Of a DNA stretch of 64,000 nt, positions 9,509-63,285 are shown piece by piece (position 1 is the first letter of the stretch; each line of letters begins with the position of its first letter). Source of the stretch: Naegleria gruberi (taxonomy: Eukaryota); NCBI GenBank assembly GCA_000004985.1, contig GG738845.1; one strand, 5' to 3'. A model generated the notes under the pieces. The model was given only the letters and a program-made list of their open reading frames with translations, did no database searches and had not been told where the DNA came from. The translations under genes were made by a program, and so were the position numbers.

Positions 9509-11829
9509 ATGCTCTCATCAAAGTCTTCTGTTGCATCCATCAATTTGATGGATTGTCAAAAAGGTACGTCTGATAATCTAAATGATCGGAAATTGTTAAT
9601 CATATAAAAGAGAGTATTTTAAACATGTTAAATATTGAAGGCTACGATGCCATTACTAATACATCAAGTAAAAAGAAAAAGAAGAAAGCCAGTGGATCCA
9701 ATGATCATGTTCTTACGGGTCATGAATTAGGACATCAATTAACAGAACGAAAAGTACAACAGTGGAAAGTTTTAATTATGGATAAACATTGTTCAGAAAT
9801 TATTACTCCATTGTTCAAAGTTGGAGATTTGAGAGCAATGGGAGTGACTTTAATGTTGTAAGTTATTTTGTTGTGATTTGTGGATAATTGATTTAGACCT
9901 TTAGAAGAGAAGAGACAACCAATTGCAGATGCACCGGCCATTTATTTTGTTCAACCAACTCAACATAATATCGATCGCATTTGTAGTGATTGTGAAAGGG
10001 AGCTCTATGCCTCCTGTCATATTAATTTTTGCCATAGTAATTATAAAAGAGATATTTTGGAAAAGATGGCCACCAAATTGGTTCAAACTGAATCAACACA
10101 TTTACTTTCAAAAGTTTTGGATCAATTTGTTAATTATATTTGCCTAGAGAAGGATTTTTTCTCCTTACTAGGTTTGGATAATTGTTTATTACAACTTCAT
10201 GATCCAACCAAGAAGGAAGAGGAAATTAAATTAATTGTGGATCAAATAGCAAACGGAATTGCATCAGTTATTTTGTCTTCATCAAATGGAAAGAATAATA
10301 CCTCTGGAGGATTTGTAATGCCAATTATTGTCTGCCCCTCAGCTCAAGGAAAACCAGCCAGATTTATTGCCGAAGCTGTTGAAAAAACTCTGAGGAATTT
10401 GGCCCAATCACCTCTTCAAGAAAATCAAAAGAATGAAACAAGTGTTGATAAAAAGAAGAATAGGCCACTATTGATAATTATGGACAGAACAGTTGATTTT
10501 ACAGTTTGCTTACAACACCAATGGACATACCGTTCTATGATTCATGACATTTTCCAAATGAAATCCAATCAAGTTAAGGTTCCAATCAGAAAGAAGGTTT
10601 CTGAAAATTCATCCCCAGAACAGACCTATGAGATTGCTTTGGATGATGAATTTTGGATTGAAAATGCTACCAAACCATTCCAAGAAGTAGCTCAAAATGT
10701 AACAAACTATTTGGAAAAGCACAAAGCAAAATTGAACGAGTTTAACAAAAAATATGGATTAAATATGAGTGAGGAAGATGTTATGAAGTCATCATCAAGC
10801 ACTGAAGATTCTGGACTCAATAAGAATACTGTTGATGAAGTATTTGTCATGTCACAAGAAAGAACCAGAGTTGACATGCACACCAATATTGCCTATGCTA
10901 TCCTTCATGAGGTAAACAAGAGAAAATTAGATGAATTTGTTGCAATCGAAGAGGCTCTTATCACCAAACAATCAAAGATTGAATCCGCAGTCTTACACTC
11001 CCTGTTGAATGTTTCAGAGGAGGGTGAGCAAGAAAAAGGTACTTTGGAAGACAAGTTGAGACTCATTCTTGTATGCTATCTCTACATTATTCAACAAGAA
11101 AGATTAAACCAGGATCCTCAATTCATAACTCGCCAGGAATTAGAAAAATACGCACTTACCCTTCAACAACGAAGATTGAGCCAGGAAGGTCAAGAATTCA
11201 AGGGTGCAACAAATTTATCCCTTGAAAATATTTTACCTGAAATTGCATTCTTGAAACAAATGACACGACACATCAGTATGACAAGAGGTACTAATGAATC
11301 ATCACTCAGACACAATTCTTCTCTTGCCAATTTGACTAAAAAGTTTTCAATTTTGGGGGATCAAATTAAGAGTATTGCGTCAGGTCTCAATGAATATTAT
11401 GGTGAGGGATCAGAGTATAGAACTACCCTTCCTCTCACTAGAATTGTTGATGCCATAGTGAATAATACACCAAGAAAACTCTCAGAACATGAGGAGTTTG
11501 TATTTATTGATCCAAAACTCCCACCTTCCCAATCACTAATCAAAACTTATTCTAAATCTTCTCCTGAAACAAATACCAATACTACTCCTGGTATGAGAAT
11601 GGATGAAATTGGCCAATCTTCCCACAATGTATCAAATAATTCACAAGATGGATTCAGTGATGTGATTACCTTTGTTGTTGGTGGTGGTAATTATATGGAA
11701 TATTCAAATCTCCTCCAACACTTTATTGCCAAGAGTGGTACTTCCATTAATGTTACCTATGGATCTACAAATGTTTTGACTGGTGGACAATTTTTAAATG
11801 AAATTAGAGCCTTAGGGAGTAATAAATAA
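9509..11829 (+). CDS. SLY1: SLY1 / SCFD1 (Sec1-family ER-Golgi SM protein); three exons: 9509..9563, 9611..9857, 9897..11829
   Basis: Exon 1 encodes MLSSKSSVASINLMDCQK. After a GTACGT...AAAAG intron (9564..9610) the joined sequence reads ...CQKESILNMLNIEG, matching SCFD1 ...RQTVALKRMLNFN. The second intron GTAAGT...ATTTAG (9858..9896) gives GVTLMLPLEEKRQPIADAPAIYFVQPT, the hallmark Sly1 motif. The rest is a continuous Sec1-family ORF to 11829. Confidence 0.85.
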
Positions 11830-11882: not shown

Positions 11883-14800
11883 TTACAATCTTGGTTGACG
11901 AAGAGGAATTTCAGTATTTGGAAGTATGGACTTGTCTGTCTTTGGAGTTGTCTTTCTATATTGTTGCAATTCACCAACAAACTCGAACAACTTATCAATT
12001 TCATTATATGGTGGTAAGAGGGAAACAACAGACTCAGATTTTGGTGCATCCTTTGCTCCCTTCTTTGAAGTTGATTTTTCGACCTTGACAGTTGTTTGGA
12101 GAATACCCATCTTGTCAAAAATAGCAACAGTGTTGGAAAGAGTCTCAGATGAACATGCTTCATAGAAATGAACTTTTTGATCAAAGTAGAGTTTTTCAAT
12201 AAACCATTGCATTCTTTCAACAAGAGCCTTCTTTCTAAGTGTTGGAATTTCTTGTTCATTACCTGAGAATGGCAATGAAATAAGTGCCATGGAAGCTCCC
12301 CAATAGGCTTCAATGAAAGGCCACAATAATGAGCAAATAAATTTGAGATTTTCCAAATACAAGACTGGAATGAATACCTTTTCATCTTTGAGTTGGAAAA
12401 TACCTCTCTTTGACATGGCATTAATGACGCTCATGAAGTCATCATGTTCCTCAGGTCTTTCCTTATAAATGAATTCAAGAGAGAGAAGCTCATTCAAAAA
12501 TTCACATCTCTTTAACAATTCAGAAAGAGGAACGCCTTGGTCAATCATTAATTTTTCTCTGAATGAGTAGAATGAGCATGAGACAATACTTTCAACAAAG
12601 AATAGGTGAATAATTTGATTTCTATAATAGCTGAGTTCCAAAATCTTCTTATAGTCTGACTTGACTTCAATAGCTGGTTCTAACATGTTCTTATTCTTCT
12701 TGATAATATTATTGATCAATCCAAGAGCTCTGTTCACTACTGATGCTGTAGTTTGTGTCTTGGACCAGTAAACATTTCCTCCTCTTGAAATAATTTGATT
12801 CTTTAACCAATCGGTCTTGCTTTGTAATTCTTCCATACTAATACCTTCTCTATAGGTTAATAAAATTGTAGAAACGAGAGCAATAGGCATAATGACGACA
12901 GATTGATTCAAATCATAGGTAATCTTGGTACCAAGATTTTTAACAAGGGTATTCTTGTCATCATCTTGACCGAATGGATCGAATGAAGGAGATTCTGATT
13001 TCATATTTTCAACATAGTCCTTCAATGAAATTGGTTCAGCAATTTTGACATGAATGTCGCCATACTTTCTCAACAAGACAGAACTTGCAGAGATGAGAGC
13101 AGAGAGAGATTCTCCCTTCTTATTTCCTCCTAACAATTCTCTAGTATGTGATTCACTTTCAATAACCTTTTCATAACCAATATGAATAGGTACAAGTGTG
13201 AGGTTATCGACACGCTTGTCTAAATAAGTATCAGCAATGGTTTTCAAAAGTCCAAGTTTCGGTCTGAGAGTTTTGCCACCTCTTGAACGAGTACCTTCAA
13301 CAAAGAATTCAACAGGATTACCATCAACGAGTAAACGTTGAACATATTCAGAAAAGATGGCCTTATATACCTTGTCAGAACCGAAAGATCTTCTCATAAA
13401 GAAAGCACCCGAGTATCTGAATAAATCACGAACTAAAAACATGTTTAAAAAGTCTTCTCCAGCAGCAATGTGTGGAACTGGAACACCATATACAAAGAAA
13501 ACATAGGAAACAATTAAGAAATCAATATAACTTCTGTGAGTTGGAATGAATACAAGAGTTCCTGATTCTGCCTTTTTAGAAATTTCTTTCAATTTTTCAA
13601 TTTCATTTGTGTCGACCATAATAGATTGATACATTCTACGCCAAATCTTTCTTAAAATCCAACCAAATGCTCTAATTGCATTATTATTTGGGTCAGCAAA
13701 CATTTGGTCCATAATTTGGAGAGCTCTCTTTTCAACATTCATAACAGAAATGTTGAGAGTTTCAGCTTCAGATAATATGGCATCTTGTACAATTTTTGAT
13801 TGTAAAACTGTTTGTTTGACTTGTTCTCGGGTTTGACCATCAGTGAAACGGCCTGCAGCTGTAAATGCCAATTCTACATCATTATAGAGATTGTTAATGA
13901 AATTATACTCATTGGACTTGATCAAGTCAGTGGTGGTTGGTGGTTCAGGATTTTCCTTTAAAACAAACTTGTGGAGACCATAACAGAAATATTGGAAATA
14001 GGTGGACCAATTAATAAGACTCCAATCAAGAGTAAACAAGTCCTTTTCATTTTCTGGTAATCTGTGGAAAGCAGAATCCAAATTGGCAACATCAAAGAAC
14101 CATTCATTGAGGGTAAAGTGATGGAAATTTGAGGAGAGATTGGATTGACGGGAGGCCATCTTTTTAAATCCTTCTACAGCTTTAACTGCAGCCTTGCTTC
14201 CAAAAATAGTGGCAATCAACCCATATAATTGAATCATCCAAGTGTATCTCATCAAGTATTGTGTCTTGTAGAAGAATCTATTTGTAATCATATTAAATTC
14301 AGCTCTTGAAACACTCTTATCAGGTTGGTGAGTGTGCCAATATCCTAAAAAAAGTTAATAGAATAAGAATATATAAACTTACTGAGTGTTCCTGTGACAG
14401 TATCTTGCCATCTGCCTGGATTAGATGTGGAAGTACCACAATGGTAAACTCTCAAACTTGATTTTCTTGTTGCAATATCAGCTGGACAAATAATCATGGC
14501 ATTGGAAACAAAATCAACTGGAACTTGATCTGATACAACCTTAGTGTTACCAGGAAGCAAGTGAATAATACCAAGACCACTAAACAAGTAAACAGAACCA
14601 CCTGCAGATACAGCATCAATCCAACCAGGAACAGGATCTCTCAATGCAGCACCCACAATGGTTGGTCTCAAAATTGCAACATTGACATCTCCCTTATATT
14701 TGGCAACAAGTGCTTCACCAATTCTCTTAGTGATGGTATAGGTATTTGGATAACCTGTAAAGGCCAATGCCTTTACAGTTGCCTTTTCAATTTCTTTTGG

Positions 14801-15592
14801 TGATAATTTTCTAATTCTTTCACAAAATGCTTCAATATCTTCACCACCTGGTAATTTAAGAGGATAGAATTTTTCATCAACTCTACTTCCTGATTTCATA
14901 TTTGAGTTTGTATAGGCAGTTGAGATGTGAGTAAATGCTTCAATATTGTGACATTGTTTAGCAAAGTTCAAACATCTCAAAGGACCATAAGCATTCAAAT
15001 TAATGGCATAGTCCAATCTTTCCGTAAATCCGATAGTTGCAGCACTGTGAATAATAACTTGAATTTCTTTTTTCAATTGTTCAATCTTATCTAAGGTAGA
15101 TCCTACAAAGATATTTTCTTCTGTAACATCTCCAAATACTCCTTCAACTTTCTCTCTTGCAAATACTTCAAAATCTTCACGTTTTCCATTAAATCTTTCC
15201 CTTATTATTCTATCCATAATGGGTGATCTCAAAATTTCTGTAATCAATCTTTCTTCTGGTGGAATTACTTTTCCAGTCTTTCTATCCTTTTTTTCACGTA
15301 CTAACAAGTATAATTTCCTAATATTTGGAAGACATCTCAAAAACTTTTCAACAACAACCTTTCCTAAAAATCCTGTACAGCCAGTACAGAAAACAGTCTT
15401 GTTATTATAATATTCAGTTAAAGATAATGGAGCTGAAGAAGTGTAATCATCATGATGGGTTGAATTCAACAAATCGGAATAGGTATAAAAAGTATAATCA
15501 TCAGTATGACCTTGTTTTTTAGAAAAGGAAGCAAAGTATGAATTCATTGTTATCTTGATATTCTCTGAATCGGAGTTTAAATTTGAACACAA
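11883..15592 (-). CDS. Fused fatty acyl-CoA reductase (FAR) / dihydroxyacetone-phosphate acyltransferase (DHAPAT/GNPAT) ether-lipid enzyme. Two exons: about 14382..15592 and 11883..14343, with a 38-nt GTAAGT...TTTTTTAG intron
   Basis: The upstream part has the FAR NAD-binding motif FCTGCTGFLGKVVVEKFL. The track starts it at TTG 15592; the likely ATG is at MNSYFASF. The downstream part begins inside the FAR_C (sterile) domain (YTWMIQLYGLIATIF) and carries the acyltransferase H-box PTHRSYIDFLIVSY and the FVEGTRSRGGK box typical of GNPAT. The two ORFs differ in frame by exactly the amount a 38-nt intron removes. The C-terminus ends ...QPRL, a possible PTS1-like peroxisomal signal. Confidence 0.8.
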
Positions 15593-19000: not shown

Positions 19001-19484
19001 GGAGAATAATACAGGTACAGTCAGTTTTGAGGAAGAGATGGACCGTCTAACTGTTGAAAACAAGCAAATAACTGAGACAAACAAACTTCTTGAACTTCAA
19101 ATAGCAAGTTTCTCCAAGGACGTTTATTTTGAAGAGAGCCAAAAGTTTCAACAATTATATTTGGCTGAGAGAGAAAAAACGAACAAACTGTCAGCTCAAT
19201 GTAAACAGTTTGTACTAAAAATTACAGAGCAAGAGCAATACATAGAAAGTTTGAGTTCAAAATGTGAAAGAGCTTTTGATGACATTGCAAGAGAGAGACA
19301 ACGAACTGAAGTAGCCCTCAGATTAGTAAAAAAAGGACATAAGGAAAAGGAGGAATTTTTGATTGAAATAGAAAACCTGAAACATCAGTTCGAAGTTGCT
19401 CTTGATGTTTTAAGGAGAAATCAATTTGAACAAGAGTTTTATAGAATGCTAAAGAAGAGCACTTTAATTAAAGGAATCTTGTAA
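16062..19484 (+). CDS. Large coiled-coil protein (Ser/Thr/Pro-rich N-terminal region, about 900-residue heptad-repeat rod), function unknown
   Basis: 1140-aa ORF. The true ATG may be MLDEVSSS at about 16140. The long K/E/Q/L-rich heptad region contains a roughly 11-residue tandem module ([57 protein letters not shown]...). Confidence 0.5.
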
Positions 19485-22400
19485 TGATTCGTAGCGTTCT
19501 AGGTCAACAGCTGAAACAGAAGGAGTAATATTATTGAATGCCTTTTCAAAATCATCTTGACATACAACAATTTGGTGTGATTGCTTATTGGAAATGTCAC
19601 CCTCACTAGTTTCCCTGCTTACAGCATTCATAAAAGCGTCTGTGCAAATAGCATAAAAATCGGCTCCTGTTAGATTAAATTCTCTGTTTTGTAGAAGTAT
19701 TTTCAAGTTTACATCATTTGCAAGGTTGAATTTTCTTGTGAGAGCATGTAAAACTTTGAGTTGACCTTCATGTGTCTTTGAAACTCCCAAATAAACTAAT
19801 CTCTCAAATCTTCCCGGTCTTAAAAGAGCGGGATCAATCAAATCTGGTCTATTGGTTGCACCAATCACGAAAACTCCCTTATTAGATGTAGAATCCTTCT
19901 CATCATCTGAGGCATTAGAAATATCATCCAATTCAGCCAACAATTGGGAAACGACTCTATCACTAACACCTCCAGAATCGCCACTAGCACCTCTATTTGG
20001 TGCAAGAGCATCTAATTCATCGAAGAATATAACACATGGTTTTGCTTGGCGTGCTCTTTCGAATACAAGTCTAACATTTCTTTCACTTTCACCAACATAC
20101 GCATTAATTAACTCGGGTCCTTTAACACTCATGAAATTCAATTGACATTCAGTTGCTACTGCTTTTGCAAGAAGAGTCTTACCACAGCCTGGTGGACCAT
20201 ACCTTTGTACCATATTGATATAAAATTGTGAAATAAAAATTATTACTTACAATAAGACACCACTTCTTGTTTTGAGATTTGAGTGGGATTGGAGAGGTGA
20301 TTGAATGATATCAAGAATTTCCTGTTTTGCATGTTCTAAACCACCAATATCTTGCCATTTTACAGTTGGGATAGATAAGTTGGTTGTACTACCTGCATCC
20401 TTGCCTGCTACGGCATATTTTTTTAACCATTTCATTCCTCCATTCACAAAATGTTTGTGAGATAGGGTGGATGTGTAAACTAAAGATGAAACTTTTGATT
20501 GTTGTTGGTACTTGTTGACATGTTGAAGCGATTCTATTATGGCTTGTGTCTTGGAGATTTGAACGATATTGTTCAGGTCATGCACAGAGCATCCACTGGT
20601 TTGTTTAACAATCTGTGAGGTTGACAAATCAATATTACAAATTGATTTGATATCAGTAGTATTCTTTCTAAAGAATAAATCTCTCTCCTCTTCACTCAAG
20701 TTTCTTCTAAATTCAATCTTGGTTAGGAATATATTTCTGAATACTGGACTTAGCAAATCTAAGGATGAAACACTTGGAATGAATATCATAGGGTAAGGAT
20801 TATTCTTTGATTTGAGAGATTGTTTGAGACATTTAACAATTCTAATCTTGGAATGTTGCTTGATGTTGGTACCTCCATTATTATTGTTGCTCAATTGATC
20901 AAAGGCTTGGAAGTGCTTAATGTAGAGTACACAAGGAGTACATTGTTTGGCAAGTGTAAAACATTGAGCAAGATTTTGGGCTGTAATGGCATCTGATTCA
21001 TTGATAATTTCAAAAGCATTAATTTCTATAAGATGGAATCCATACTTGGTACAAATAGAATGAACAGCATGAGTTTTTCCTGAGCCCTCCTCGCCATAAA
21101 TTAAAAAGTGTTGTTGAACTAGATTCTTTTGGCTTGATCTATTTGGCTGTTTGTGAATGGAAATGATTGGCTCGATGGCTTTGCAAAGTTTTTTGAAACC
21201 ACTCACTTGATTTTCATAGTCCTCATTGATATCTGATGGTATGTATCCCCTTACAGGTTGGGCATTGGTAATGACAGCAGTTTCTGTATTATCAATGATG
21301 AGTGTTTCATCTGAATCAACACCCAATTCGAGTGTATCAACTCTATAACCAGTATAGTCTCCATGAATTGGATCCAATCTTTTGCTTGCTTCCAATTGTG
21401 CCAAAACTTGAATCTGAACTGACTCCTCAGATTTAATAAAATCAATATTTGGATTCTCCACTAACACAATATCATTCTTACGTAATGCTCTCTTATGATT
21501 TGTAAAAAAGATTTCTAATTGTTTCTCGAAAAGTTGTTGTTCCAGTTTTTGTTCTTCCTCTGTTCCTTCTGTAAGTGTATTTCCGAAATGATTTGGACTT
21601 TGTATTGGTGTGAGAACAATTTTAGAAGCTACCTTTGGAGCATTTTGGTTGGACATTATTTGAATACGTGTTGGCTTGCCGAGATTAAAGTACAATGATT
21701 TAGTCAATATTATATCATCCTCAACACCATGAATGACACAAATTAAAGAACTGTGTGTATTATTCAACTTCACCCAACTATTATCAAAGCAATTGAGAGA
21801 GGCAAATAGTTTGGAACTCAGTAATACCATGGAGAGTGGATCTGCAGACAAGATTTGCTCTATGTTTTCATTGACACATTTTTCAAGATAACCACGGAAG
21901 GTTTCTGTAGTAACCGATTTGATATTTGTGGTTGAAATTGTGATTTGATTTTTCATTGCTATAAAATCAGAAGATAACATTTCTTCTAGGGAATCATTTC
22001 CCAATAATTCCATTTCAATATTTGATAAATTATAGATACGATCTGGCACACTTGCACCAGGTGTATTGAATAGAATGACCTTGGTCTTTTCATCAATTAA
22101 TCCTTGTCGAGTTGGAGTTGTATCAACAATTTGAAACAACAATTTTCCTTCATCAATAATACTAAAAGTATGAAACCTGGTCAATAATGTTGATATTTGT
22201 TTTTTGGTAAAATGTAAAAATTCATATTCATTCTCTGAAATCCAATCTTGTACATTGTTATCATTTTCTGAAATAATTGCTTGCACAATAATTTGCTCCA
22301 AAATAGGAATATTAGATTTTTCAATAATTTGAATATCAATAGATATAACAAATCCCTCCTCAACTACATGATCCAATAGATTTTCCAAATAATCATTTCC

Positions 22401-22619
22401 AACCAAAAATTCTATTATTTTGTTGTTATCACTATTTGTTGGCTTGTTATTCATTATTGTTAGTAATGTTTGCTCGGAAACAAGAGCTTCTGTCATGAAA
22501 GTCTCATTCACTAACAAGTACACTGATTTATCACTGCTACTACTAACAGTATTATTCATTGACTTTTCCACCAATTTATGACAATTCAGGTGGGAGACTT
22601 TCTCTAGGGTTGCTTTCAT
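19464..22619 (-). CDS. PEX6: Peroxin PEX6 (type II AAA ATPase). Two exons: 20251..22619 and 19464..20202, with a 48-nt GTAAGT...ACAAAG intron
   Basis: The D2 AAA domain [73 protein letters not shown]...[10 protein letters not shown]...[31 protein letters not shown]...[11 protein letters not shown] is near-identical in pattern to PEX6 D2. The D1 Walker A upstream is degenerate ([10 protein letters not shown]). The junction reads ...RSGVLL|YGPPG after the in-phase intron is removed. Confidence 0.85.
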
Positions 22620-23443: not shown

Positions 23444-25115
23444 TTAATGGTGTTGCTGTATTGAGGCTTGAACCTTTTTTTGTAAATTTTGATAATAGTC
23501 ATCTATTCGTTCTAGTTTGGTATTTAATGAAGTAATAACTTCCATATCCTCCATCAGAATAATTGCTTTCTCGATATTAACAGAATTCCTCAAATAAATA
23601 GGTGCCAACCTAGCATGTTCAGAAATTGCGAGATCCACAAAAGGGACAGTAAATAAGGGGACATAAGGGAAAAAGGGAGTTTTAGCAGCCTTGGTGATAA
23701 TTGTAGATAAATTCCAAATCTCATCTATTTGAGTGTTGTCTATGGTTACCATAAGAGCAAGTTTCAACCCATTATGAAGAATGTCAATAAAAGTTGAAAT
23801 GAGTTGAACTACTGGATGTTGTGGATTATCGTGCTCAGGACATAGCTTTTTTTGAGTAAATGGCCTTAGAATTGCATCCAATACATTAAATACATCATTA
23901 ATTTTTGTCTTATCCATTGACATTTCCAAAAATCCCATATTCCTTATATCAAACCCCATACATGTCTTGATAACATTGGGAAAATTTTGTACAATACTTA
24001 TTGGTCCGTTCTTTTCAGCAGCCAGAAGAAACTCAAGACTTGCTCTGAGATTAATGTCCCACTTGACTAAATTTTTCATCTCAGGGGTGGATGGGTTATT
24101 TCTAGACTCGTACTCAATAACCTCACTTACAAAATATCTTACAATATCTAAATACATAGATTGTTCCTTATACTTCCTCCTTCCTTGGCAAACAAACGAC
24201 AAATTCAACAATGCCATACCAGCATATGTATTGGTAAAACAGTCCATGTAGGGTGCCAATAAAAGTTTTGCGTGCTGAAAACAAATTTCTGCATACTCTT
24301 TTGAACCTAGGCGCAGCTCTCTCCATGCTTGTAACGAAAATACAACAGCCTTAAAATCATTCCCAGCCTCATCCAAGTTCTCAATCAAATGCCCAAACAA
24401 ACCTTTTGGGATTATCTCATACATTCTTTAGAGAATTAGTTTTGAATATTTCAAAGATTACTTACTGGAGTGAATAAAACCCAAGAATGTTTTTCTTATT
24501 TGCGTGAATTGCATTAGATGTATCATTAATAGTTGGATTTTGAATAGAGACAACTGGGGGATCAGATATTGTTTTACCTCCATTCTTTCTTTCATATTCA
24601 CATTTAATTCCTCTCTTTGAGCAATTAGAGCAGGAAGGAAGATTTCTAGTGCATTTACGATGATTTCTTCTACAGTATTTGCATGAAATTGAACTGAATG
24701 TTTGCTCCTCAAATCTAATTTCCTTAACATATGGTTTGAAATGTAAATCCTTATTTTGACTATTTACACCCGAACCCGAACCATTACTATTACTTTCCTG
24801 TTGCTGATGAAGATTATTTTGATGACTTGTTGAGCAGTTTGGATTTGTATCTAAATGGCCAGTTGTGATGATGGGATGATGGTGCGCAAAAGACAAATCG
24901 CCACTACTAGTATTCGTCACGAATGTATTATGATGATGGATGTTATTGTTGCCATTATTCCCAACCACACTATGATTACCACTACTACTGGTCAATAACG
25001 ACAGAAAATCCAACAACCCAATGTTGTGCTGGCCGTTTTGATGTTGATGAGGAAACATTTTTTTGTTGCTGAATAACAGTTCTTGAAAAAGCATCTGGCC
25101 ATACTTAAAATACAT
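23444..25115 (-). CDS. Zn(II)2Cys6 binuclear-cluster (GAL4-type) transcription factor. Two exons: 24466..25115 and 23444..24425, with a 40-nt GTAAGT...TCTCTAAAG intron
   Basis: The motif CKYCRRNHRKCTRNLPSCSNCSKRGIKCEY is a canonical Cx2Cx6Cx5-6Cx2Cx6C cluster. It is preceded by a His/Asn/Gln-rich region. The intron is in phase. The downstream exon encodes a 326-aa helical regulatory domain. Confidence 0.7.
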
Positions 25116-53236: not shown

Positions 53237-55277
53237 TTATTTAGAAGCTTCTCTAATTTCCTTAATGAGCTTCTTCTTGTAAGCATCAATGTTATCCTTA
53301 TAAATCTTGACAGTACCCTTTTCAACTTGCCAGATTTGCTTATTTTCTATCTTATCAATCAATCTAAAATCGTGAGAAACTAAAACAACACCGCCAGAGT
53401 AGCAGTTGATAGCTTCAGCAAGAGAGTCAATTGTTTCAATATCAAGATGGCTGTAAAAAGATAAATTAGAAATTAAATTCAATCTAATATACTTACTTAG
53501 TAGGTTCGTCAAGGAACAAAATAAATGGCTTCTTAAGAGCTAACCAAGCAAAAATCAATCTTGATTTCAAACCATCTGAGAGACATTTAATTGGAGCAGT
53601 TTGACGTGTACCACTGATACCATAAGTACCAATAGCAGCTCTCATCATTTCTGTACCATTAGAGTTATTTTCAATAAGGTCTGGGAATTCCTTAAACATC
53701 CATTCTAAAGGAGTCATGTCTTCATCTAATTGCTAAATAAATAGTTAAAATTATTGACAGGTTATTAAAAACATACTTCAGTCAAATGTTGGTGGTAGTG
53801 ACCAATCTTCAAGTGGGAGTGAAGATTAATATCTCCAGAGACAGGTTTAAGTTGCTTAACCATGAGTTTCATCAATGTAGATTTACCAGCACCATTCTAT
53901 AAAGAGTGTTAAAAATTTCAATTAAGGATATACTATTGACTACTTACTGGACCGACGAGAGCAATACGGGAATCCATATCAACACCCAAAGATAGCTTAC
54001 TGAATAACAATGGAGGTTCTGGCATAATTTCAGTAGCTGGGTAGTGGAATGAGACTTCGTTAAATTGCAAAACTGGTGGTGGCAACTTTGGAACATCTGG
54101 GAATGTGAATTTGAAAATCTTGTCAGCAGTAACCTTTTCAGTTAAACCACTTCTCATCATCTTTTCAAGTTGTTTTTCCTTAGATTTGGCTTGTCTAGAC
54201 ATTTTGATGGATGTTTGACCGAACTTGGCAATATATTCCTTCATTCTACTGATATCATCTTGTTCAGATTGATATCTCTTCATTTGATTGACTTCTAATT
54301 CTTCTCTAGTCTTGCAGTAGGTATCATAATTACCTCCGTAATAAGTTAATCTTTGATCTTTGAGATGGATAATTGATGTACAGACATTGTTAAGGAAATC
54401 TTGAGAGTGGGAAATGATAATTAAAGAGTTTTCATATTCTTTGAGGTACATTTCAAGCCAGACACAAGTTTCAAGATCAAGATGGCTGTATATTATTAAT
54501 GGATGGAAATAAGATTGTAATTATATGAAAATAAGAATTAGGTCAAAAATCATAAAACACTTACTTTGTAGGTTCATCGAGAAGCAAAACATCAGGTTCA
54601 ATGAAAAGAGCTTCGGCCAACTTGATTCTCATTCTCCAACCACCGGAGAAATCCTTAGTTGCCTTCAATTGCATTTGAGGAGTAAAACCCAAACCGTGCA
54701 AAAGTTTAGCAGCCTTAGGTTTCGTCCATTCTGGATCTAATTCTTCCAACTTATCCATGATGAGTTCTTGTCTTTCAGTTGTTGTCTTTGGATCGTTCAA
54801 TTCCTTTTCTAATCTTTTACGTTCCTTATCGACACTTGATAAAACATAGTCAAGTGCACTCATATCGGTTGGTTTAGCTTCACCTTGTAAGTGATAAATT
54901 GAAATTTGCTTTGGAATAGGAATCATTCTTCTACCCAAAACTTTGAGAAGAGTGGATTTACCTGAACCATTCAAACCGATTAAACCGTATTTAACACCTC
55001 TATTCAAACAAAATTCAGTGTCATCAATAAGATCAACTGAGGCAGAGAGTTGTGGTGAAGAAATGGATATAGAAAAGTGTTCAAATTTCAAGTCCATAGA
55101 AAGTGGGTGAGAAACCAAATTACCAGTGGCTGAAATGTGAAGAGTTGTTGTGGAAGCATCTTGTTGAAGTTCGTGATTTTCGTCATCACTATCATAATCA
55201 ACCTTTGTTGGAGTGGTACTAGCAGGAGAAGGAGTATTGGATTTACCACCTTTCTTGTTATTCTTCTTTGGAGGCAT
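53237..55277 (-). CDS. ABCF-family ATP-binding cassette protein (GCN20/ABCF-like, two NBDs, no TMD), 606 aa. Five exons: 54565..55277, 53948..54485, 53777..53896, 53497..53732 and 53237..53450
   Basis: NBD1 has Walker [12 protein letters not shown], signature LSGGWRMR and Walker B LLLDEPTN (split by intron 1 after DEPT). NBD2 has Walker A VGP|NGAGKST (split by intron 2), signature LSDGLKSR and Walker [10 protein letters not shown] (split by intron 4). The four introns are 79, 51, 44 and 46 nt. They use GTAAGT or GTATGT donors, and all are phase-consistent with the track coordinates. Confidence 0.85.
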
Positions 55278-58714: not shown

Positions 58715-61700
58715 TTAAACAATTTCTGGTTTATCATTGACTGTTCTGTGGTGGGTTAAGGTTTGTCCAATTCCAACTGAGCTAGAGGTACCTGCTGTAA
58801 TCGGTTGACCAATGCTTGTTTGATCCTTTTCATCTGTGAAACTAGTACCCATATTTGTTTGATTTTTAAAGTTTCTGCCACTCTTATTTCCACCCTTTGA
58901 TTTGAACAATTTTCTTACAATTAAACAACAGCAACAAATAAAGCAAATCACACCGACAATAATAGCGTCATAAACATAACGATTATATCGAACATTATTG
59001 TAGTGCTCCATCAATTCATCAATATAGAGGAATGGATTTTCTTCACTGTCTTGTAATTCAAATTGGGATCTATTTGGGAAGTACCAATTGTAAAAGTTGT
59101 GTAACATTTCAACAACCTGTTCATTTGGTTTGGTTTGATTCATATCATCATTCAAACAAATGAATTTAGGTCTGTTTCTTCTCAATTCGTCCAATTGATC
59201 TCCAACTTTATCTTCATCATCTCTAATCATGTGGAATCCTACTTGAGATAAATCTTCCAATGTAAATGGAAAACGTTGTTCGCTCTTGTGTGCCTTTGTT
59301 TTAACAATATCGCTTAGGCCACTATTAACAAAATCTTCAAGAATTGGTTTAGTTCTGAATGCAGAGTCATCCATTGCTTGATATCGTGACAATACAAGCC
59401 TTGTATAATTGAGATGGCCATACAGGATATTTCTTACTGTTTGATGATACTCCTTAAATTCAGAAAAATCTTCAAAATAGGACCAAGATTTCCACTTCTT
59501 GTTACTCTTTGTACTGGCCCAGAAATAGGAACCAAATTCATCATCTTCTGAATTTTTTGTACTGTTTGTTGTTGCAGTTGTGTTAATAGGTGATGTACTA
59601 ATTTCTGGTGTTGGAGTCTTCTTTTTGCCCTTCTTAGTTTTCTTTTTTGGTTTTTCTAATCCTCCTCTTTCCTTTTTCATTTCATCATTAATTGTATTAA
59701 TACTAGATGTAATATTGGTATGTAAATCAGTTAATTTGGAGAGAGGTATCTTGTACTTGTGATACATCAAGTTAGCTAAATTTCTAATTTCATAATTATC
59801 CAAAACATTATCATTGTTTGTATCAACATGTTCCCTCAAAAATCTAGAGACATTATAGTGAATACCTTCATGCATTAAATAGTAGAAATAGGTAAATGTA
59901 TACTGCATATCACTTGAGGATCTAAATCTATTGGATGATGTGACATTGAATTCATATTCCCATTTCTTTTGAAGTTCGAACATAATGTCCCTATCAATCA
60001 TGTGAGGCATGTGAGCTGGTACCTTACGAGAGGCCCTACCATATTCTCTATTCAACAACTTATTCACATGAATTAAACTATCTCCAAACTTATCGAGGAG
60101 TTTTCTACCGATTCTAACAGGTGTGGAGCTTTCTGTGGTGACGCTGTTACTGCTGTCATCATAGTTTTCACTCTTGATTTCTCTTTCAATTCTCTTTTTG
60201 ATATTTTCATATTTTTCTTGATTCTTTTCCTTTTCTGCTAGATTGAAACGGAGGGAATTAACAATTTCTTCAGGATGAGATTGAACAATAGGAATTCTGT
60301 TAGAGTATGATGGTCGAATATTTGATGGAGACGAGATGCCCAATAACTTTCTGTTTTTCTTTTTTAACAACTTTTTCAAATATCTCAATTCATCACTATT
60401 GAGATTATCGATATTATAATTGTCGGCTTCTTGAGTTGGAGACTTTTCTGGTGTTTTAGGAACTTGCTGCTTCTCGGTTGCAATGACTGGATTGGTTTTG
60501 ATAACATTTTCAGAGATGTCATCAATTTCTGTTGCCTTTTCTTTTTGTTTGGTTTCTGTCTTGATATCAACAACTTTTTTAGTCAAATCATCTTCAATCT
60601 TTTTAGTGACAGGTTTGATTTCAGTATCCTTTTTAGCTTGTATAGTGTCGAGTGTACTAGTTGGGGTTTCTTTGGTGACAGTTTCCAAAGTATTCTTCAT
60701 TGGTTCAGTTTTCTTTTCCTCCAATTTAACTTGAGCTTTTTTGGTGTCAATAGATGCAGGACGAACAGCTTGGTTTTCAGTAATGACTGGATTGGTTTTG
60801 ATAACATTTTCAGAAATATCGTCAATTTCTGTTGCCTTGGTTTCTAACTTGGATCCAGATTGTTTCTTGGTATTTGTAACTGACTTGTCATTTTCTTGAG
60901 TATCAGAATTGATATTGTTCCAACTATTAAACCAATCAGTTTCAGGAGTTGTCTTGGTGGCTTTTTCTGCAGGTTTGGTGCTATTGTTCTTTCCAACAAT
61001 AGCATTAAGCTGAGTTTTAGAAAAGTAGGTAGAAACCACCAATGCCTTATTGTAGTTCTTGTCAGCTGCTAACTCTGATTCTTGTGATTCATGAATACCA
61101 AAAATGCTTGTTTCATTTGATAAGTTAAATTTTTTGGCAATGTAATTGAATGTATGATTTGAAACAACCTTTACGATGAAAGATTTTGTAATTGTCAATT
61201 TAGTGCCCAATTGTTCAAAAGTAGTGGAGTGAGTGTTTTGGAATGTATCAGTTTTGGAGGTATCATTAAGAACTCTCTCAGCTTCCAAAGAAACCGGGAC
61301 ATGTTCTTCATAGAAATTGGTATTGTTACTGTACTTGGTAACATTGGACTTGAGAGATTGATAATTAAAAGTGAATATGAGGAGCTTTTCCTTTTGTGAA
61401 ATTGTTGAACTTCTAACTAGCTTTTCATTTTCGTGATTGCCATTAGTAATTTGAGCATCTTTGAATATCTTACTCAAATCCAAGTAAATGGAAGGTTCTA
61501 TATTACGGACATAGATAACTGAAATGCTATTTTCCAATTGTACATGCTCCAATTCTGTCTTTAATTCCTTAAACTCGCAATCTCCAGCATCATAACCACA
61601 TTCTTTAACGTTACATGGTCTATCACAAAAACGATCACCAATCCATGAATCAGAACAAGAGGCTGAGCAATAATTCTTAGTATTAGTGGATGACCAAAAA

Positions 61701-63285
61701 CTATTAGAATTACTACCATAATTATAGTTACCACCATAGTTGCCATAACTTGATGAAGAGCTTGAAGATCCGTAAGAGAATCTCACATTTGGACCAACGC
61801 AATCACCACCATCAAAATCACATTGAGTAACATTGCAAGAAACGTCACAATAACCATCACCTAACCAAGATTCTTGGCATCCTTCATGGCATGGAGGAAC
61901 TTCCCAACTGAGGAATACTTTTTGTCCAGTTGAGTGACTATAAAAATCCTCTGGATACACATCGTTACCAAACATGACATCATCATTCAAGTAAATAAAC
62001 TTTTTAGAAAGGCCAGGAATTCTATGAATTTGAGATTCAATAGAAGGTGAGCTGAAAACTGGTAAATGGATTGGATTTCTGTAAACATCGGCATGTTTAA
62101 CAATTTTAACCTTTGGATTCTTTACGTTTAACCAGCTTGGCACTTGACCACTTGTCACAATATAAACATTTCTGACCCATGGAGCAAATCGTTCCAAACT
62201 ACGTAAACTGTATCTCAACTCATCATTATCTCTAAATCTGTTACTACTATTGGTATCATCAGTTTTGGTAGCATTCTTAGTTGTTGTACCATTGTTGATA
62301 ATTTCTGAGTCATTTTTAACTTTAGGAGTATTTTCCTTCTTTGATTTCTTAGTGGTCTTTTTTGTCAAAGCCTTGTTAGTTTTTGCTTTCTTTCCAGTGG
62401 CACCCTTTTTTTCAACCTTAGTATGTTGTTGTTTGGTAACTGGTGGTTTGGTTGTCTTTTTTGATGAATTGGTTTTCTTTGTAACAGGTGCTTTAGTCTT
62501 TTTGGTTACTTTGGCATTCTTATTGGTTTGAGGAATTGATTTCTTATTAGTTTCTTGTTTCTTCTTGCTTGTGGATTTCACAGAGAGTAATCTTCTTCTC
62601 TTCTTTGTTTTGTTTTCTTGTGTTTTCACATGTGCATTTCCTACTCCTTTCAAATGGTAATTATTGGTTGTTTTCTGATTGGATTTGCTAGAATCAGTAG
62701 TACTAGTAGTAGTAGTATTGGAAGACGTCTTGGTAGCAGCACTTTCAATTGTTTTAGTATTGTCAACATTAGATTTTTCTTCCTTCTCCTTTTCCAAAGC
62801 ATTAAATCGTTTCACTAAATTCTTGTGTATTGGATCGGAACCATTGACCCAAGTATAAACAATATCCATAGGTTCATAACACAATTTAGAAACTGAATTA
62901 ATTTTCATAATATTATCTCTATACATCCTATTACAATAATTTCCCAATTGTGATGCTTCATCATCCTATATTAAATATTTAAATAAATAATTTAAAAATT
63001 GAAATGTTAAAATTATTGAGAATAAATTCATTCGCATTATTATAAACTTACCACAAGGGTAGTCTTATCAGTGATGGAAATATCCAAAATAGATTGTAAC
63101 AAGTGCAATGCCGTATTTAAAGTAATAAATGTAATAATAATCAACAATATAGCACCCCATTTAGATGTTGCAAAGGAATAGAATGAACGTTGAATAGACT
63201 TTGAAAATTGATCATTAAAACAGGAACAACATTTCTTTCCTCTCTTATGATCCAATCCGACATTAGCAGTCGATGAGGGTAACAT
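58715..63285 (-). CDS. UDP-GlcNAc:lysosomal-enzyme N-acetylglucosamine-1-phosphotransferase alpha/beta-like (Stealth family with Notch LNR repeats). Two exons: 63052..63285 and 58715..62965, with an 86-nt intron
   Basis: Exon 1 gives a signal-anchor TM (WGAILLIIITFITLNTALHLL). The joined sequence ...LCYEPMDIVYTWVNGSDP is Stealth CR1, and IYLNDDVMFG is CR2. There are two LNR modules (CHEGCQESWLGDGYCDVSCNVTQCDFDGGDC and CSASCSDSWIGDRFCDRPCNVKECGYDAGDC). A C-terminal Stealth CR3/CR4-like region (HMPHMIDRDIMFELQKKW) and a C-terminal TM are present. Basic Lys/Thr low-complexity inserts are also present. Confidence 0.75.
60430..60860 (-). repeat. In-frame direct repeat inside the phosphotransferase gene: two 110-130 bp units about 300 bp apart
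   Basis: The protein shows KATEIDDISENVIKTNPVITENQAV... and KATEIDDISENVIKTNPVIATEKQQV.... The plus-strand shadow ORF shows NDWIGFDNIFRDVINFCCL and NDWIGFDNIFRNIVNFCCL. The nucleotide strings ...actggattggttttgataacattttcaga... occur at about 60487 and about 60787. Confidence 0.7.

What the first reader, a model, noticed from the sequence alone, without database searches (positions are those of the whole stretch)
11883..15592. Single-gene FAR-DHAPAT fusion: both acyl-DHAP steps of ether-lipid synthesis in one polypeptide, joined across a 38-nt intron
The FAR Rossmann domain and the GNPAT/DHAPAT acyltransferase domain lie on the same strand. They are separated only by a textbook GTAAGT...TTTTTTAG mini-intron, whose removal restores the frame exactly. 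The FAR_C sterile domain continues straight into the acyltransferase exon. FAR-DHAPAT fusions are known from only a few protist lineages (Dictyostelium, ciliates). This one would channel fatty alcohol production to the enzyme that supplies acyl-DHAP for alkyl-DHAP synthase. The C-terminal ...PRL may be a non-canonical PTS1. PEX6 lies 4 kb away, but that is probably coincidence.
Basis: partly seen in the sequence, partly recalled or inferred. Interest (0 to 1): 0.6.

Follow-up and report, generated by a model that had tools for sequence, protein, structure and literature searches.

The report
Naegleria FARAT ether-lipid fusion gene
This is the Naegleria gruberi copy of FARAT, a known peroxisomal fusion enzyme that makes both starting materials for ether lipids; it is real and correctly read, but already annotated and published, so it is ordinary.

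Summary
On the minus strand, a 38-nt GTAAGT...TTTTTTAG intron (14382-14345) separates two long ORFs. Removing it gives one uninterrupted 1208-aa CDS (15547-14383 + 14344-11883). The domain order is NAD_binding_4, Sterile (FAR_C), Acyltransferase, GPAT_C, and the protein ends in -PRL.

The intron lies inside the FAR module, not at the FAR/acyltransferase junction. That junction sits in continuous exon 2, so the fusion does not depend on the splice. The Willaertia magna orthologue (66% identical) has a 47-nt intron at the same codon and phase.

The window is Naegleria gruberi NEG-M. GenBank XP_002683520.1 ("predicted protein, partial", 1145 aa) is 100% identical to residues 43-1187 and uses the same splice. 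It lacks both ends, including -PRL.

This architecture is the known FARAT enzyme, characterised in Tetrahymena and Dictyostelium. A 2026 PNAS survey states that N. gruberi encodes FARAT and that the fusion is the usual form outside animals.

The acyltransferase part scores higher against primate GNPAT (253 bits) than against human GPAT1 (187) or E. coli PlsB (194). My tree backbone is weak. Nearly all eukaryotic homologues end in PTS1-like tripeptides.

The nearby PEX6-like gene is not linked to FARAT in Willaertia.

Verdict: already known, low interest.

The parts
14383..15547 (-). FARAT CDS exon 1 (codons 1-388 plus the first base of codon 389). It starts at the first in-frame ATG.
   Evidence: An in-frame stop lies 23 codons upstream, with no intervening ATG.
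14345..14382 (-). 38-nt spliceosomal intron, GTAAGT...TTTTTTAG, phase 1, 16% GC.
   Evidence: The public model XP_002683520.1 uses the same junction. Willaertia has a 47-nt intron at the same codon and phase. Three other GTAAGT introns of 40-79 nt in the window join long ORFs in the same way.
11883..14344 (-). FARAT CDS exon 2 (rest of codon 389 to codon 1208, plus the TAA stop at 11883-11885). It holds FAR_C, the acyltransferase and GPAT_C in one continuous frame.
14495..15385 (-). FAR catalytic Rossmann domain (PF07993 NAD_binding_4, residues 55-351). It carries TGCTGFLGK (GxxGxxG) and YPNTYTITK (YxxxK).
   Evidence: E 2.8e-53. Motif alignment.
13953..14243 (-). FAR C-terminal 'Sterile' domain (PF03015, residues 423-519).
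   Evidence: E 1.5e-16.
13179..13574 (-). Acyltransferase core (PF01553, residues 646-777). Motif I is HRSYID, motif II GAFFMRR, motif III FFVEGTRSR, motif IV VPIHIGYEK.
   Evidence: E 9.9e-22. Motif alignment with GNPAT, GPAT1, PlsB and TtFARAT.
12093..13142 (-). GPAT_C helical region shared by GNPAT, GPAT1 and PlsB (PF19277, residues 790-1139).
   Evidence: E 2.2e-76.
11886..11894 (-). C-terminal tripeptide Pro-Arg-Leu, a candidate PTS1. It is absent from the truncated public model.
   Evidence: PRL> is a validated plant PTS1 (PMC3427985). Homologues end -PKL, -SKL, -AKL, -ARL, -SRL or -SRM.

Best explanation
This is the Naegleria gruberi FARAT gene, a two-exon gene for a 1208-aa bifunctional peroxisomal enzyme.

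The N-terminal FAR module (Rossmann domain plus FAR_C) uses NADPH to reduce acyl-CoA to a fatty alcohol. The C-terminal GNPAT-type module transfers an acyl group from acyl-CoA to dihydroxyacetone phosphate, giving 1-acyl-DHAP. These two products are the co-substrates of alkyl-DHAP synthase (AGPS, encoded elsewhere), which forms the ether bond. The C-terminal -PRL is read by PEX5 as a PTS1, so both activities are delivered to the peroxisomal matrix.

Shown here: the gene structure, domain order, catalytic motifs, orthology to characterised FARATs, the conserved intron and the conserved PTS1-like end. Inferred from homologues: the two enzyme activities, DHAP preference and peroxisomal import.
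For: Splicing restores one ORF. The four Pfam domains occur in FARAT order. The protein is collinear over its full length with Tetrahymena TtFARAT P0196 (33.6% over 1123 aa, 638 bits), a dictyostelid FARAT (36.5% over 1216 aa) and Willaertia (65.6% over 1193 aa).

The GxxGxxG and YxxxK motifs and acyltransferase motifs I-IV are all intact. The public model XP_002683520.1 is 100% identical across the splice junction. The intron position and phase are conserved in Willaertia, while intron length and sequence differ. Transcriptome-derived complete fused ORFs exist in other protists, including the heterolobosean Percolomonas (P0004).

The acyltransferase region scores 253.5 bits against Pan GNPAT, 193.9 against E. 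coli PlsB and 187.4 against human GPAT1. GNPAT itself scores only 122 bits against GPAT1.

PTS1-like ends are present in all the eukaryotic FARAT and GNPAT sequences compared, and absent from the bacterial relatives, PlsB and two eukaryotic acyltransferase relatives that lack a FAR module.

Literature: FARAT function and peroxisomal location in Dictyostelium (PMC7375469). N. gruberi encodes FARAT, AGPS and PEDS1 (PMC13012113). Naegleria ether-lipid enzymes carry a PTS (PMC9512073).
Against: In my NJ tree of the acyltransferase core (274 columns), GPAT1 and PlsB fall outside the FARAT/GNPAT group, but that split has only 2-9% bootstrap support. Sequence cannot decide DHAP versus glycerol-3-phosphate preference. 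Pro at position -3 is a minor PTS1 variant, validated in plants and not in Heterolobosea.
Confidence: 0.93

Rival explanations
1. The C-terminal module is a glycerol-3-phosphate acyltransferase (GPAT), or an enzyme with dual specificity, rather than a dedicated DHAPAT. The fusion would then feed ester-lipid as well as ether-lipid synthesis.
For: The Pfam families that match (PF01553, PF19277) are shared by GPAT1, PlsB and GNPAT. The only solved structures found are GPATs (E about 1e-54). The tree backbone is unresolved. Yeast Gat enzymes accept both substrates (stated in PMC7375469).
Against: GNPAT scores higher than GPAT1 or PlsB. The protein sits in a 100%-bootstrap clade with other FAR-fused proteins. 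It is full-length orthologous to Tetrahymena and Dictyostelium FARATs, whose role in ether-lipid initiation was shown experimentally. The PTS1-like end places it with DHAP-pathway enzymes. The published GNPAT phylogeny includes the N. gruberi FARAT.
Confidence: 0.05
2. There are two separate genes or products: a truncated FAR Rossmann protein from the upstream ORF (intron retained, stop after 15 codons), and a separate FAR_C-acyltransferase protein started at the internal Met of the downstream ORF.
For: Each ORF is long on its own. A bacterial-style gene call of the downstream ORF alone exists in a public collection (P0002, 789 aa).
Against: Only 38 nt lie between the coding segments, with consensus splice sites. 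The residues across the junction (TGTL|RYWHTHQPDKSVSRAEF) align without a gap to Willaertia and more distant FARATs. A split would separate NAD_binding_4 from its obligatory FAR_C partner. The intron is conserved in Willaertia. The public eukaryotic gene model is spliced.
Confidence: 0.02

Closest known systems
Naegleria gruberi XP_002683520.1 / EFC50776.1, 'predicted protein, partial' (1145 aa)
   Same: It is the same locus: 100% identical over 1145 aa, with the same 38-nt intron removed.
   Different: The public model is truncated at both ends. It lacks the first 42 residues and the last 21, so it has no start Met, no stop and no -PRL. The complete 1208-aa reading is supported by collinearity with the 1198-aa Willaertia protein right to its -PKL end.
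TtFARAT of Tetrahymena thermophila (P0196, 1140 aa; Dittrich-Domergue et al. 2014, as cited in PMC13012113 and PMC7375469)
   Same: It has the same four-domain order. It shares 33.6% identity over 1123 aa, all catalytic motifs and a PTS1-like end (-ARL). The cited papers report it as experimentally bifunctional and peroxisomal.
   Different: It comes from a different supergroup. The N. gruberi protein has a 40-50 residue longer N-terminus and ends -PRL.
Dictyostelium discoideum FARAT (fatA; PMC7375469), represented in the alignment by the dictyostelid Tieghemostelium lacteum P0150
   Same: The architecture is the same, with 36.5% identity over 1216 aa to the dictyostelid orthologue. The Dictyostelium protein ends -SKL and is in the peroxisome lumen, and its knockout loses ether lipids.
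   Different: The Dictyostelium protein carries poly-Asn tracts that are absent here, and it has a canonical -SKL rather than -PRL.
Animal GNPAT/DHAPAT (Pan paniscus P0240, 99% identical to the human sequence) and stand-alone FAR1/2
   Same: The acyltransferase module is homologous (30.9% over 595 aa, 263 bits by BLASTP; 253.5 bits by phmmer), with the same motifs and a PTS1 (-AKL).
   Different: In animals FAR and GNPAT are separate genes, and FAR1 is a membrane-anchored protein acting on the cytosolic face (PMC13012113). Here both are in one polypeptide that is probably luminal.

Membership tests
FARAT (FAR-GNPAT bifunctional fusion) | An N-terminal fatty acyl-CoA reductase module: PF07993 NAD_binding_4 followed by PF03015 Sterile/FAR_C. 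| tested here: met
   residues 55-351 (181 bits; cut-off 20.1) and 423-519 (60.8 bits; cut-off 35.4).
FARAT (FAR-GNPAT bifunctional fusion) | The FAR nucleotide-binding GxxGxxG motif and the catalytic YxxxK motif are intact. | tested here: met
   TGCTGFLGK (55-63) and YPNTYTITK (266-274), aligned with TtFARAT and other FARATs.
FARAT (FAR-GNPAT bifunctional fusion) | A C-terminal GNPAT/PlsB-type acyltransferase (PF01553 plus PF19277) with motifs I-IV. | tested here: met
   residues 646-777 and 790-1139. HRSYID, GAFFMRR, FFVEGTRSR and VPIHIGYEK are all conserved.
FARAT (FAR-GNPAT bifunctional fusion) | Both modules lie in one polypeptide. | tested here: met
   FAR_C and the acyltransferase are in one uninterrupted ORF (exon 2). 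The Rossmann domain is joined through a 38-nt intron that restores the frame, is conserved in Willaertia and is used by the public model. RNA evidence for N. gruberi itself was not available.
FARAT (FAR-GNPAT bifunctional fusion) | Full-length collinear homology to an experimentally characterised FARAT. | tested here: met
   residues 45-1151 align to residues 6-1091 of Tetrahymena P0196 in a single HSP of 638 bits.
FARAT (FAR-GNPAT bifunctional fusion) | The acyltransferase module is closer to GNPAT than to GPAT1 or PlsB by pairwise score. | tested here: met
   GNPAT 253.5 bits, PlsB 193.9, human GPAT1 187.4. In the reverse direction, GNPAT against GPAT1 gives 122 bits.
FARAT (FAR-GNPAT bifunctional fusion) | The acyltransferase module falls inside a supported FARAT/GNPAT clade that excludes the GPATs. 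| tested here: inconclusive
   the topology agrees, and the local clade of FAR-fused proteins has 100% bootstrap. The split from GPAT1 has only 2-9% support (NJ, 274 columns). The published ML tree reports a monophyletic eukaryotic FARAT/GNPAT group that includes N. gruberi (PMC13012113).
FARAT (FAR-GNPAT bifunctional fusion) | A C-terminal PTS1 for import into the peroxisomal matrix. | tested here: met
   The end is -PRL. PRL> and PKL> are validated plant PTS1 tripeptides. All the eukaryotic FARAT and GNPAT sequences compared end in [SAPG]-[KRN]-[LMI]; the bacterial relatives, PlsB and two eukaryotic acyltransferase relatives without a FAR module do not. This is a sequence-level test only.
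FARAT (FAR-GNPAT bifunctional fusion) | Fatty-alcohol-forming and DHAP-acylating activities, and peroxisomal localisation of this protein. | not testable with these tools
   This needs enzyme assays and imaging. It is known only for the Tetrahymena and Dictyostelium homologues.
FARAT (FAR-GNPAT bifunctional fusion) | The partner enzyme AGPS is present in the same genome. | not tested
   AGPS is not in this window. PMC13012113 reports AGPS and PEDS1 in N. gruberi.

The most novel reading that the evidence does not exclude
FARAT may have been lost from the Naegleria fowleri / N. lovaniensis clade. It is present in N. gruberi and Willaertia, but no orthologue from the other two species appeared in two database searches, even though N. 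lovaniensis proteins are in the database (a stand-alone acyltransferase paralogue ending -SKL, P0235, was found). If so, the non-pathogenic model and the brain-eating amoeba would start ether-lipid synthesis differently. A lesser point is that the public N. gruberi model hides the PTS1, which the complete CDS restores.
Probability: 0.2. Interest if true: 0.35.

Novelty: already known. Interest (0 to 1): 0.1.

Why it matters
It matters little beyond curation. The fusion enzyme, its function, its peroxisomal location and its presence in N. gruberi are all published.

The useful residue is a corrected, complete gene model: 1208 aa, with a start Met and a C-terminal -PRL PTS1. The GenBank entry XP_002683520.1 is truncated at both ends, which affects any PTS1-based prediction of the Naegleria peroxisomal proteome.

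The conserved intron in Willaertia is a small piece of comparative support for that model.

Tried and rejected
(1) Solved structures were searched to tell DHAPAT from GPAT. The PDB holds only GPAT1 and a PlsB-type GPAT and no GNPAT, so this could not discriminate.

(2) I built a neighbour-joining tree of the acyltransferase core with 100 bootstraps. The topology is as expected, but the deep nodes are unsupported (2-9%), so I do not rely on it.

(3) I looked up the exact spliced 1208-aa protein in the 15-billion-protein collection, hoping for a transcript-derived copy. It is not there; only the truncated NCBI model and a bacterial-style call of exon 2 are present. I therefore have no direct RNA evidence.

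(4) I considered an alternative 80-nt intron using a downstream AG (14382-14303), which is also in frame. I rejected it because it would delete RYWHTHQPDKSVSR, which is conserved in Willaertia and other FARATs.

(5) I tested for conserved linkage with the PEX6-like gene. No AAA ATPase lies within 10 kb of the Willaertia orthologue, so the proximity is taken as coincidence.

(6) I looked for AGPS or PEDS1 in the window by Pfam on all ORFs of at least 200 aa. None was found.

(7) The original TtFARAT paper (JBC 2014) is not held in the library, so it is cited only through papers that describe it. The supplements of the PNAS paper are not held either, so I could not confirm that its N. gruberi FARAT accession is XP_002683520.1.

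(8) A literature search for ether lipids in N. fowleri returned nothing relevant.
Full report
**Observation.** The region 11883-15592 holds two long minus-strand ORFs: 14345..15592 (415 aa) and 11883..14291 (802 aa). Between the coding segments lies GTAAGTTTATATATTCTTATTCTATTAACTTTTTTTAG. It is exactly 38 nt (14382 to 14345 on the minus strand) and 16% GC, against 34-35% in the flanking exons. Removing it joins the frames: the 3672 nt from 15592 to 11883 then contain a single stop, at the end. Retaining it gives a stop after 15 codons. The first in-frame ATG is at 15547, with an in-frame stop 23 codons upstream and no ATG in between. The CDS is therefore 15547-14383 plus 14344-11883, encoding 1208 aa and ending ...LRQPRL.

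**Domains and the position of the intron.** Pfam places four domains:
- NAD_binding_4 at 55-351 (E 2.8e-53)
- Sterile/FAR_C at 423-519 (1.5e-16)
- Acyltransferase at 646-777 (9.9e-22)
- GPAT_C at 790-1139 (2.2e-76)

The intron interrupts codon 389 in phase 1. That is inside the FAR module, between its Rossmann and C-terminal sub-domains. The FAR_C-to-acyltransferase junction lies in continuous exon 2, so the fusion of reductase and acyltransferase parts is visible without assuming any splice.

**Is the intron real?** Four lines of evidence support it.
- Three other GTAAGT...AG introns of 40, 48 and 79 nt in the same window join long ORFs in frame and give stops if retained. One of them restores the Walker A motif of the neighbouring AAA ATPase. 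Introns of this size fit the other short introns in the window.
- The residues across the junction (TVTGTL|RYWHTHQPDKSVSRAEF) align without a gap to Willaertia (TVTGNL|RYWHSHQPEKSVSRADF) and to more distant homologues.
- The Willaertia magna orthologue has a single 47-nt GTAAGT...TAG intron at the same codon and phase, with unrelated intron sequence (L003 11154-11200).
- An in-frame alternative acceptor giving an 80-nt intron would delete the conserved RYWHTHQPDKSVSR, so it is rejected.

I found no transcript for N. gruberi itself. Transcriptome-derived complete fused ORFs do exist in other protists, including the heterolobosean Percolomonas.

**Source organism and existing annotation.** Exact look-ups of single-exon ORFs from the window match Naegleria gruberi NEG-M proteins on a 1,555,553-bp scaffold, for example Fcp1 (XP_002683516.1) and XP_002683210.1. 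The locus is already annotated as XP_002683520.1/EFC50776.1, "predicted protein, partial", 1145 aa. That model is 100% identical to residues 43-1187 of my model and runs across the same splice junction. It is truncated at both ends and so lacks the start Met and the last 21 residues, including -PRL. The Willaertia protein (1198 aa, 65.6% identical over 1193 aa) is collinear to the very end (...LQPKL), which supports the longer reading.

**What it is.** The architecture is that of FARAT. The protein aligns in a single HSP with the 1140-aa Tetrahymena thermophila protein P0196 (33.6% over 1123 aa, 638 bits) and with a dictyostelid FARAT (36.5% over 1216 aa). The Tetrahymena protein has the length that PMC13012113 gives for the experimentally bifunctional TtFARAT. 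The NAD(P)H-binding motif TGCTGFLGK, the catalytic YPNTYTITK and acyltransferase motifs I-IV (HRSYID, GAFFMRR, FFVEGTRSR, VPIHIGYEK) are all intact.

**Literature.**
- In Dictyostelium, FARAT ends in -SKL, is confined to the peroxisome lumen, and its knockout loses ether lipids (PMC7375469).
[quoted passage not shown] It also argues that the fusion, not the split animal arrangement, is the usual and probably ancestral eukaryotic state (PMC13012113).
- PMC9512073 notes that the ether-lipid enzymes carry a PTS in Naegleria.

The finding is therefore already known, both as a kind of enzyme and for this organism.

Pfam cannot separate the two, and the PDB contains only GPATs. I also took E. coli PlsB from NC_000913.3. 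The acyltransferase region (residues 520-1208) scores as follows:

| Comparison | Bits |
|---|---|
| Window AT region vs Pan GNPAT | 253.5 |
| Window AT region vs E. coli PlsB | 193.9 |
| Window AT region vs human GPAT1 | 187.4 |
| GNPAT vs GPAT1 | 122 |

An NJ tree of 274 core columns puts the window protein in a 100%-supported clade of FAR-fused proteins. GNPAT nests among the FARATs, and GPAT1 and PlsB fall outside. The backbone bootstraps are only 2-9%, so I count the tree as inconclusive. Substrate preference remains an inference from the characterised homologues.

**PTS1.** All the eukaryotic FARAT and GNPAT sequences compared end in a PTS1-like tripeptide: -PKL, -SKL, -AKL, -ARL, -SRL, -SRM, -ANL or -AKI. 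The bacterial relatives, PlsB and two eukaryotic acyltransferase relatives that lack a FAR module do not. [quoted passage not shown] The -PRL end is thus a plausible, conserved PTS1. It has not been tested in Heterolobosea.

**Mechanism.** The FAR module makes a fatty alcohol from acyl-CoA and NADPH. The acyltransferase module makes 1-acyl-DHAP from acyl-CoA and DHAP. AGPS, encoded elsewhere, swaps the acyl chain for the alcohol to form the ether bond. The two domains therefore do not catalyse consecutive steps; they supply the two co-substrates of the next enzyme in the same compartment. The gene structure and conservation are shown here. The activities and localisation are inferred.

**Neighbourhood.** The gene at 19464-22619 (minus strand, one 48-nt intron) encodes a 1035-aa two-AAA ATPase. 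It aligns in one stretch (350-1034) with yeast PEX6. VCP/p97 entries score higher overall, but only through its second AAA domain. The Willaertia FARAT locus has no AAA gene within 10 kb, so the linkage is not conserved and is best read as coincidence. No AGPS or PEDS1 lies in the window.

**Verdict.** The feature is an already annotated and published member of a known enzyme family. The only added value is a completed gene model that restores the start codon and the PTS1.

Noticed in passing
Related proteins P0014, P0016, P0146, P0167, P0229, P0202, P0024: Full-length four-domain FARAT-type proteins occur in oomycetes (Phytophthora, Thraustotheca, Globisporangium, Aphanomyces), the plasmodiophorid Spongospora and the apusomonad Thecamonas trahens. 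Those whose sequences I read (P0014, P0016, P0146, P0202, P0024) end in PTS1-like tripeptides. PMC13012113 states that Ciliophora is the only Diaphoretickes group with FARAT and that only AGPS was detected in Thecamonas, so the published distribution looks incomplete.
   Followed up: partly
Related proteins P0222 (Willaertia magna, 717 aa) and P0235 (Naegleria lovaniensis, 771 aa): Heteroloboseans also have a stand-alone acyltransferase paralogue (PF01553 plus PF19277, no FAR module) ending in -SKL. The two form a 100%-bootstrap pair next to the FARAT clade. This looks like a second, possibly peroxisomal, DHAPAT/GPAT-like enzyme.
   Followed up: partly
Database searches: No N. fowleri or N. 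lovaniensis orthologue of FARAT was returned, although an orthologue would be expected near the top of the list and N. lovaniensis proteins are in the database. FARAT may be absent from that clade, or unannotated there. A literature search gave nothing relevant.
   Followed up: partly
window 19464-22619 (-), intron 20250-20203: This is a two-AAA ATPase of 1035 aa with a degenerate first Walker A (GEEGSGKT) and a canonical second one restored by a 48-nt intron. It is collinear with yeast PEX6 over residues 350-1034. It is PEX6-like, and its proximity to FARAT is not conserved in Willaertia.
   Followed up: yes
window 58715-62947 (-): A 1410-aa ORF carries Stealth CR1-CR4 regions and Notch/LNR repeats, the architecture of GlcNAc-1-phosphotransferase, the enzyme that makes the lysosomal mannose-6-phosphate tag.
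   Followed up: no
window 24426-24465 (-), 54486-54564 (-): Two further short GTAAGT...AG introns (40 and 79 nt) join long ORFs in frame. The first is upstream of a Zn(2)-Cys(6) domain ORF and the second is in an ABC-transporter ATPase gene.
   Followed up: no
window 10057-11829 (+): A convergent neighbour ends 54 nt from the FARAT stop codon. It is a Sec1/Munc18-family protein (PF00995, E 3.6e-74), so the 3' intergenic space is very tight.
   Followed up: no
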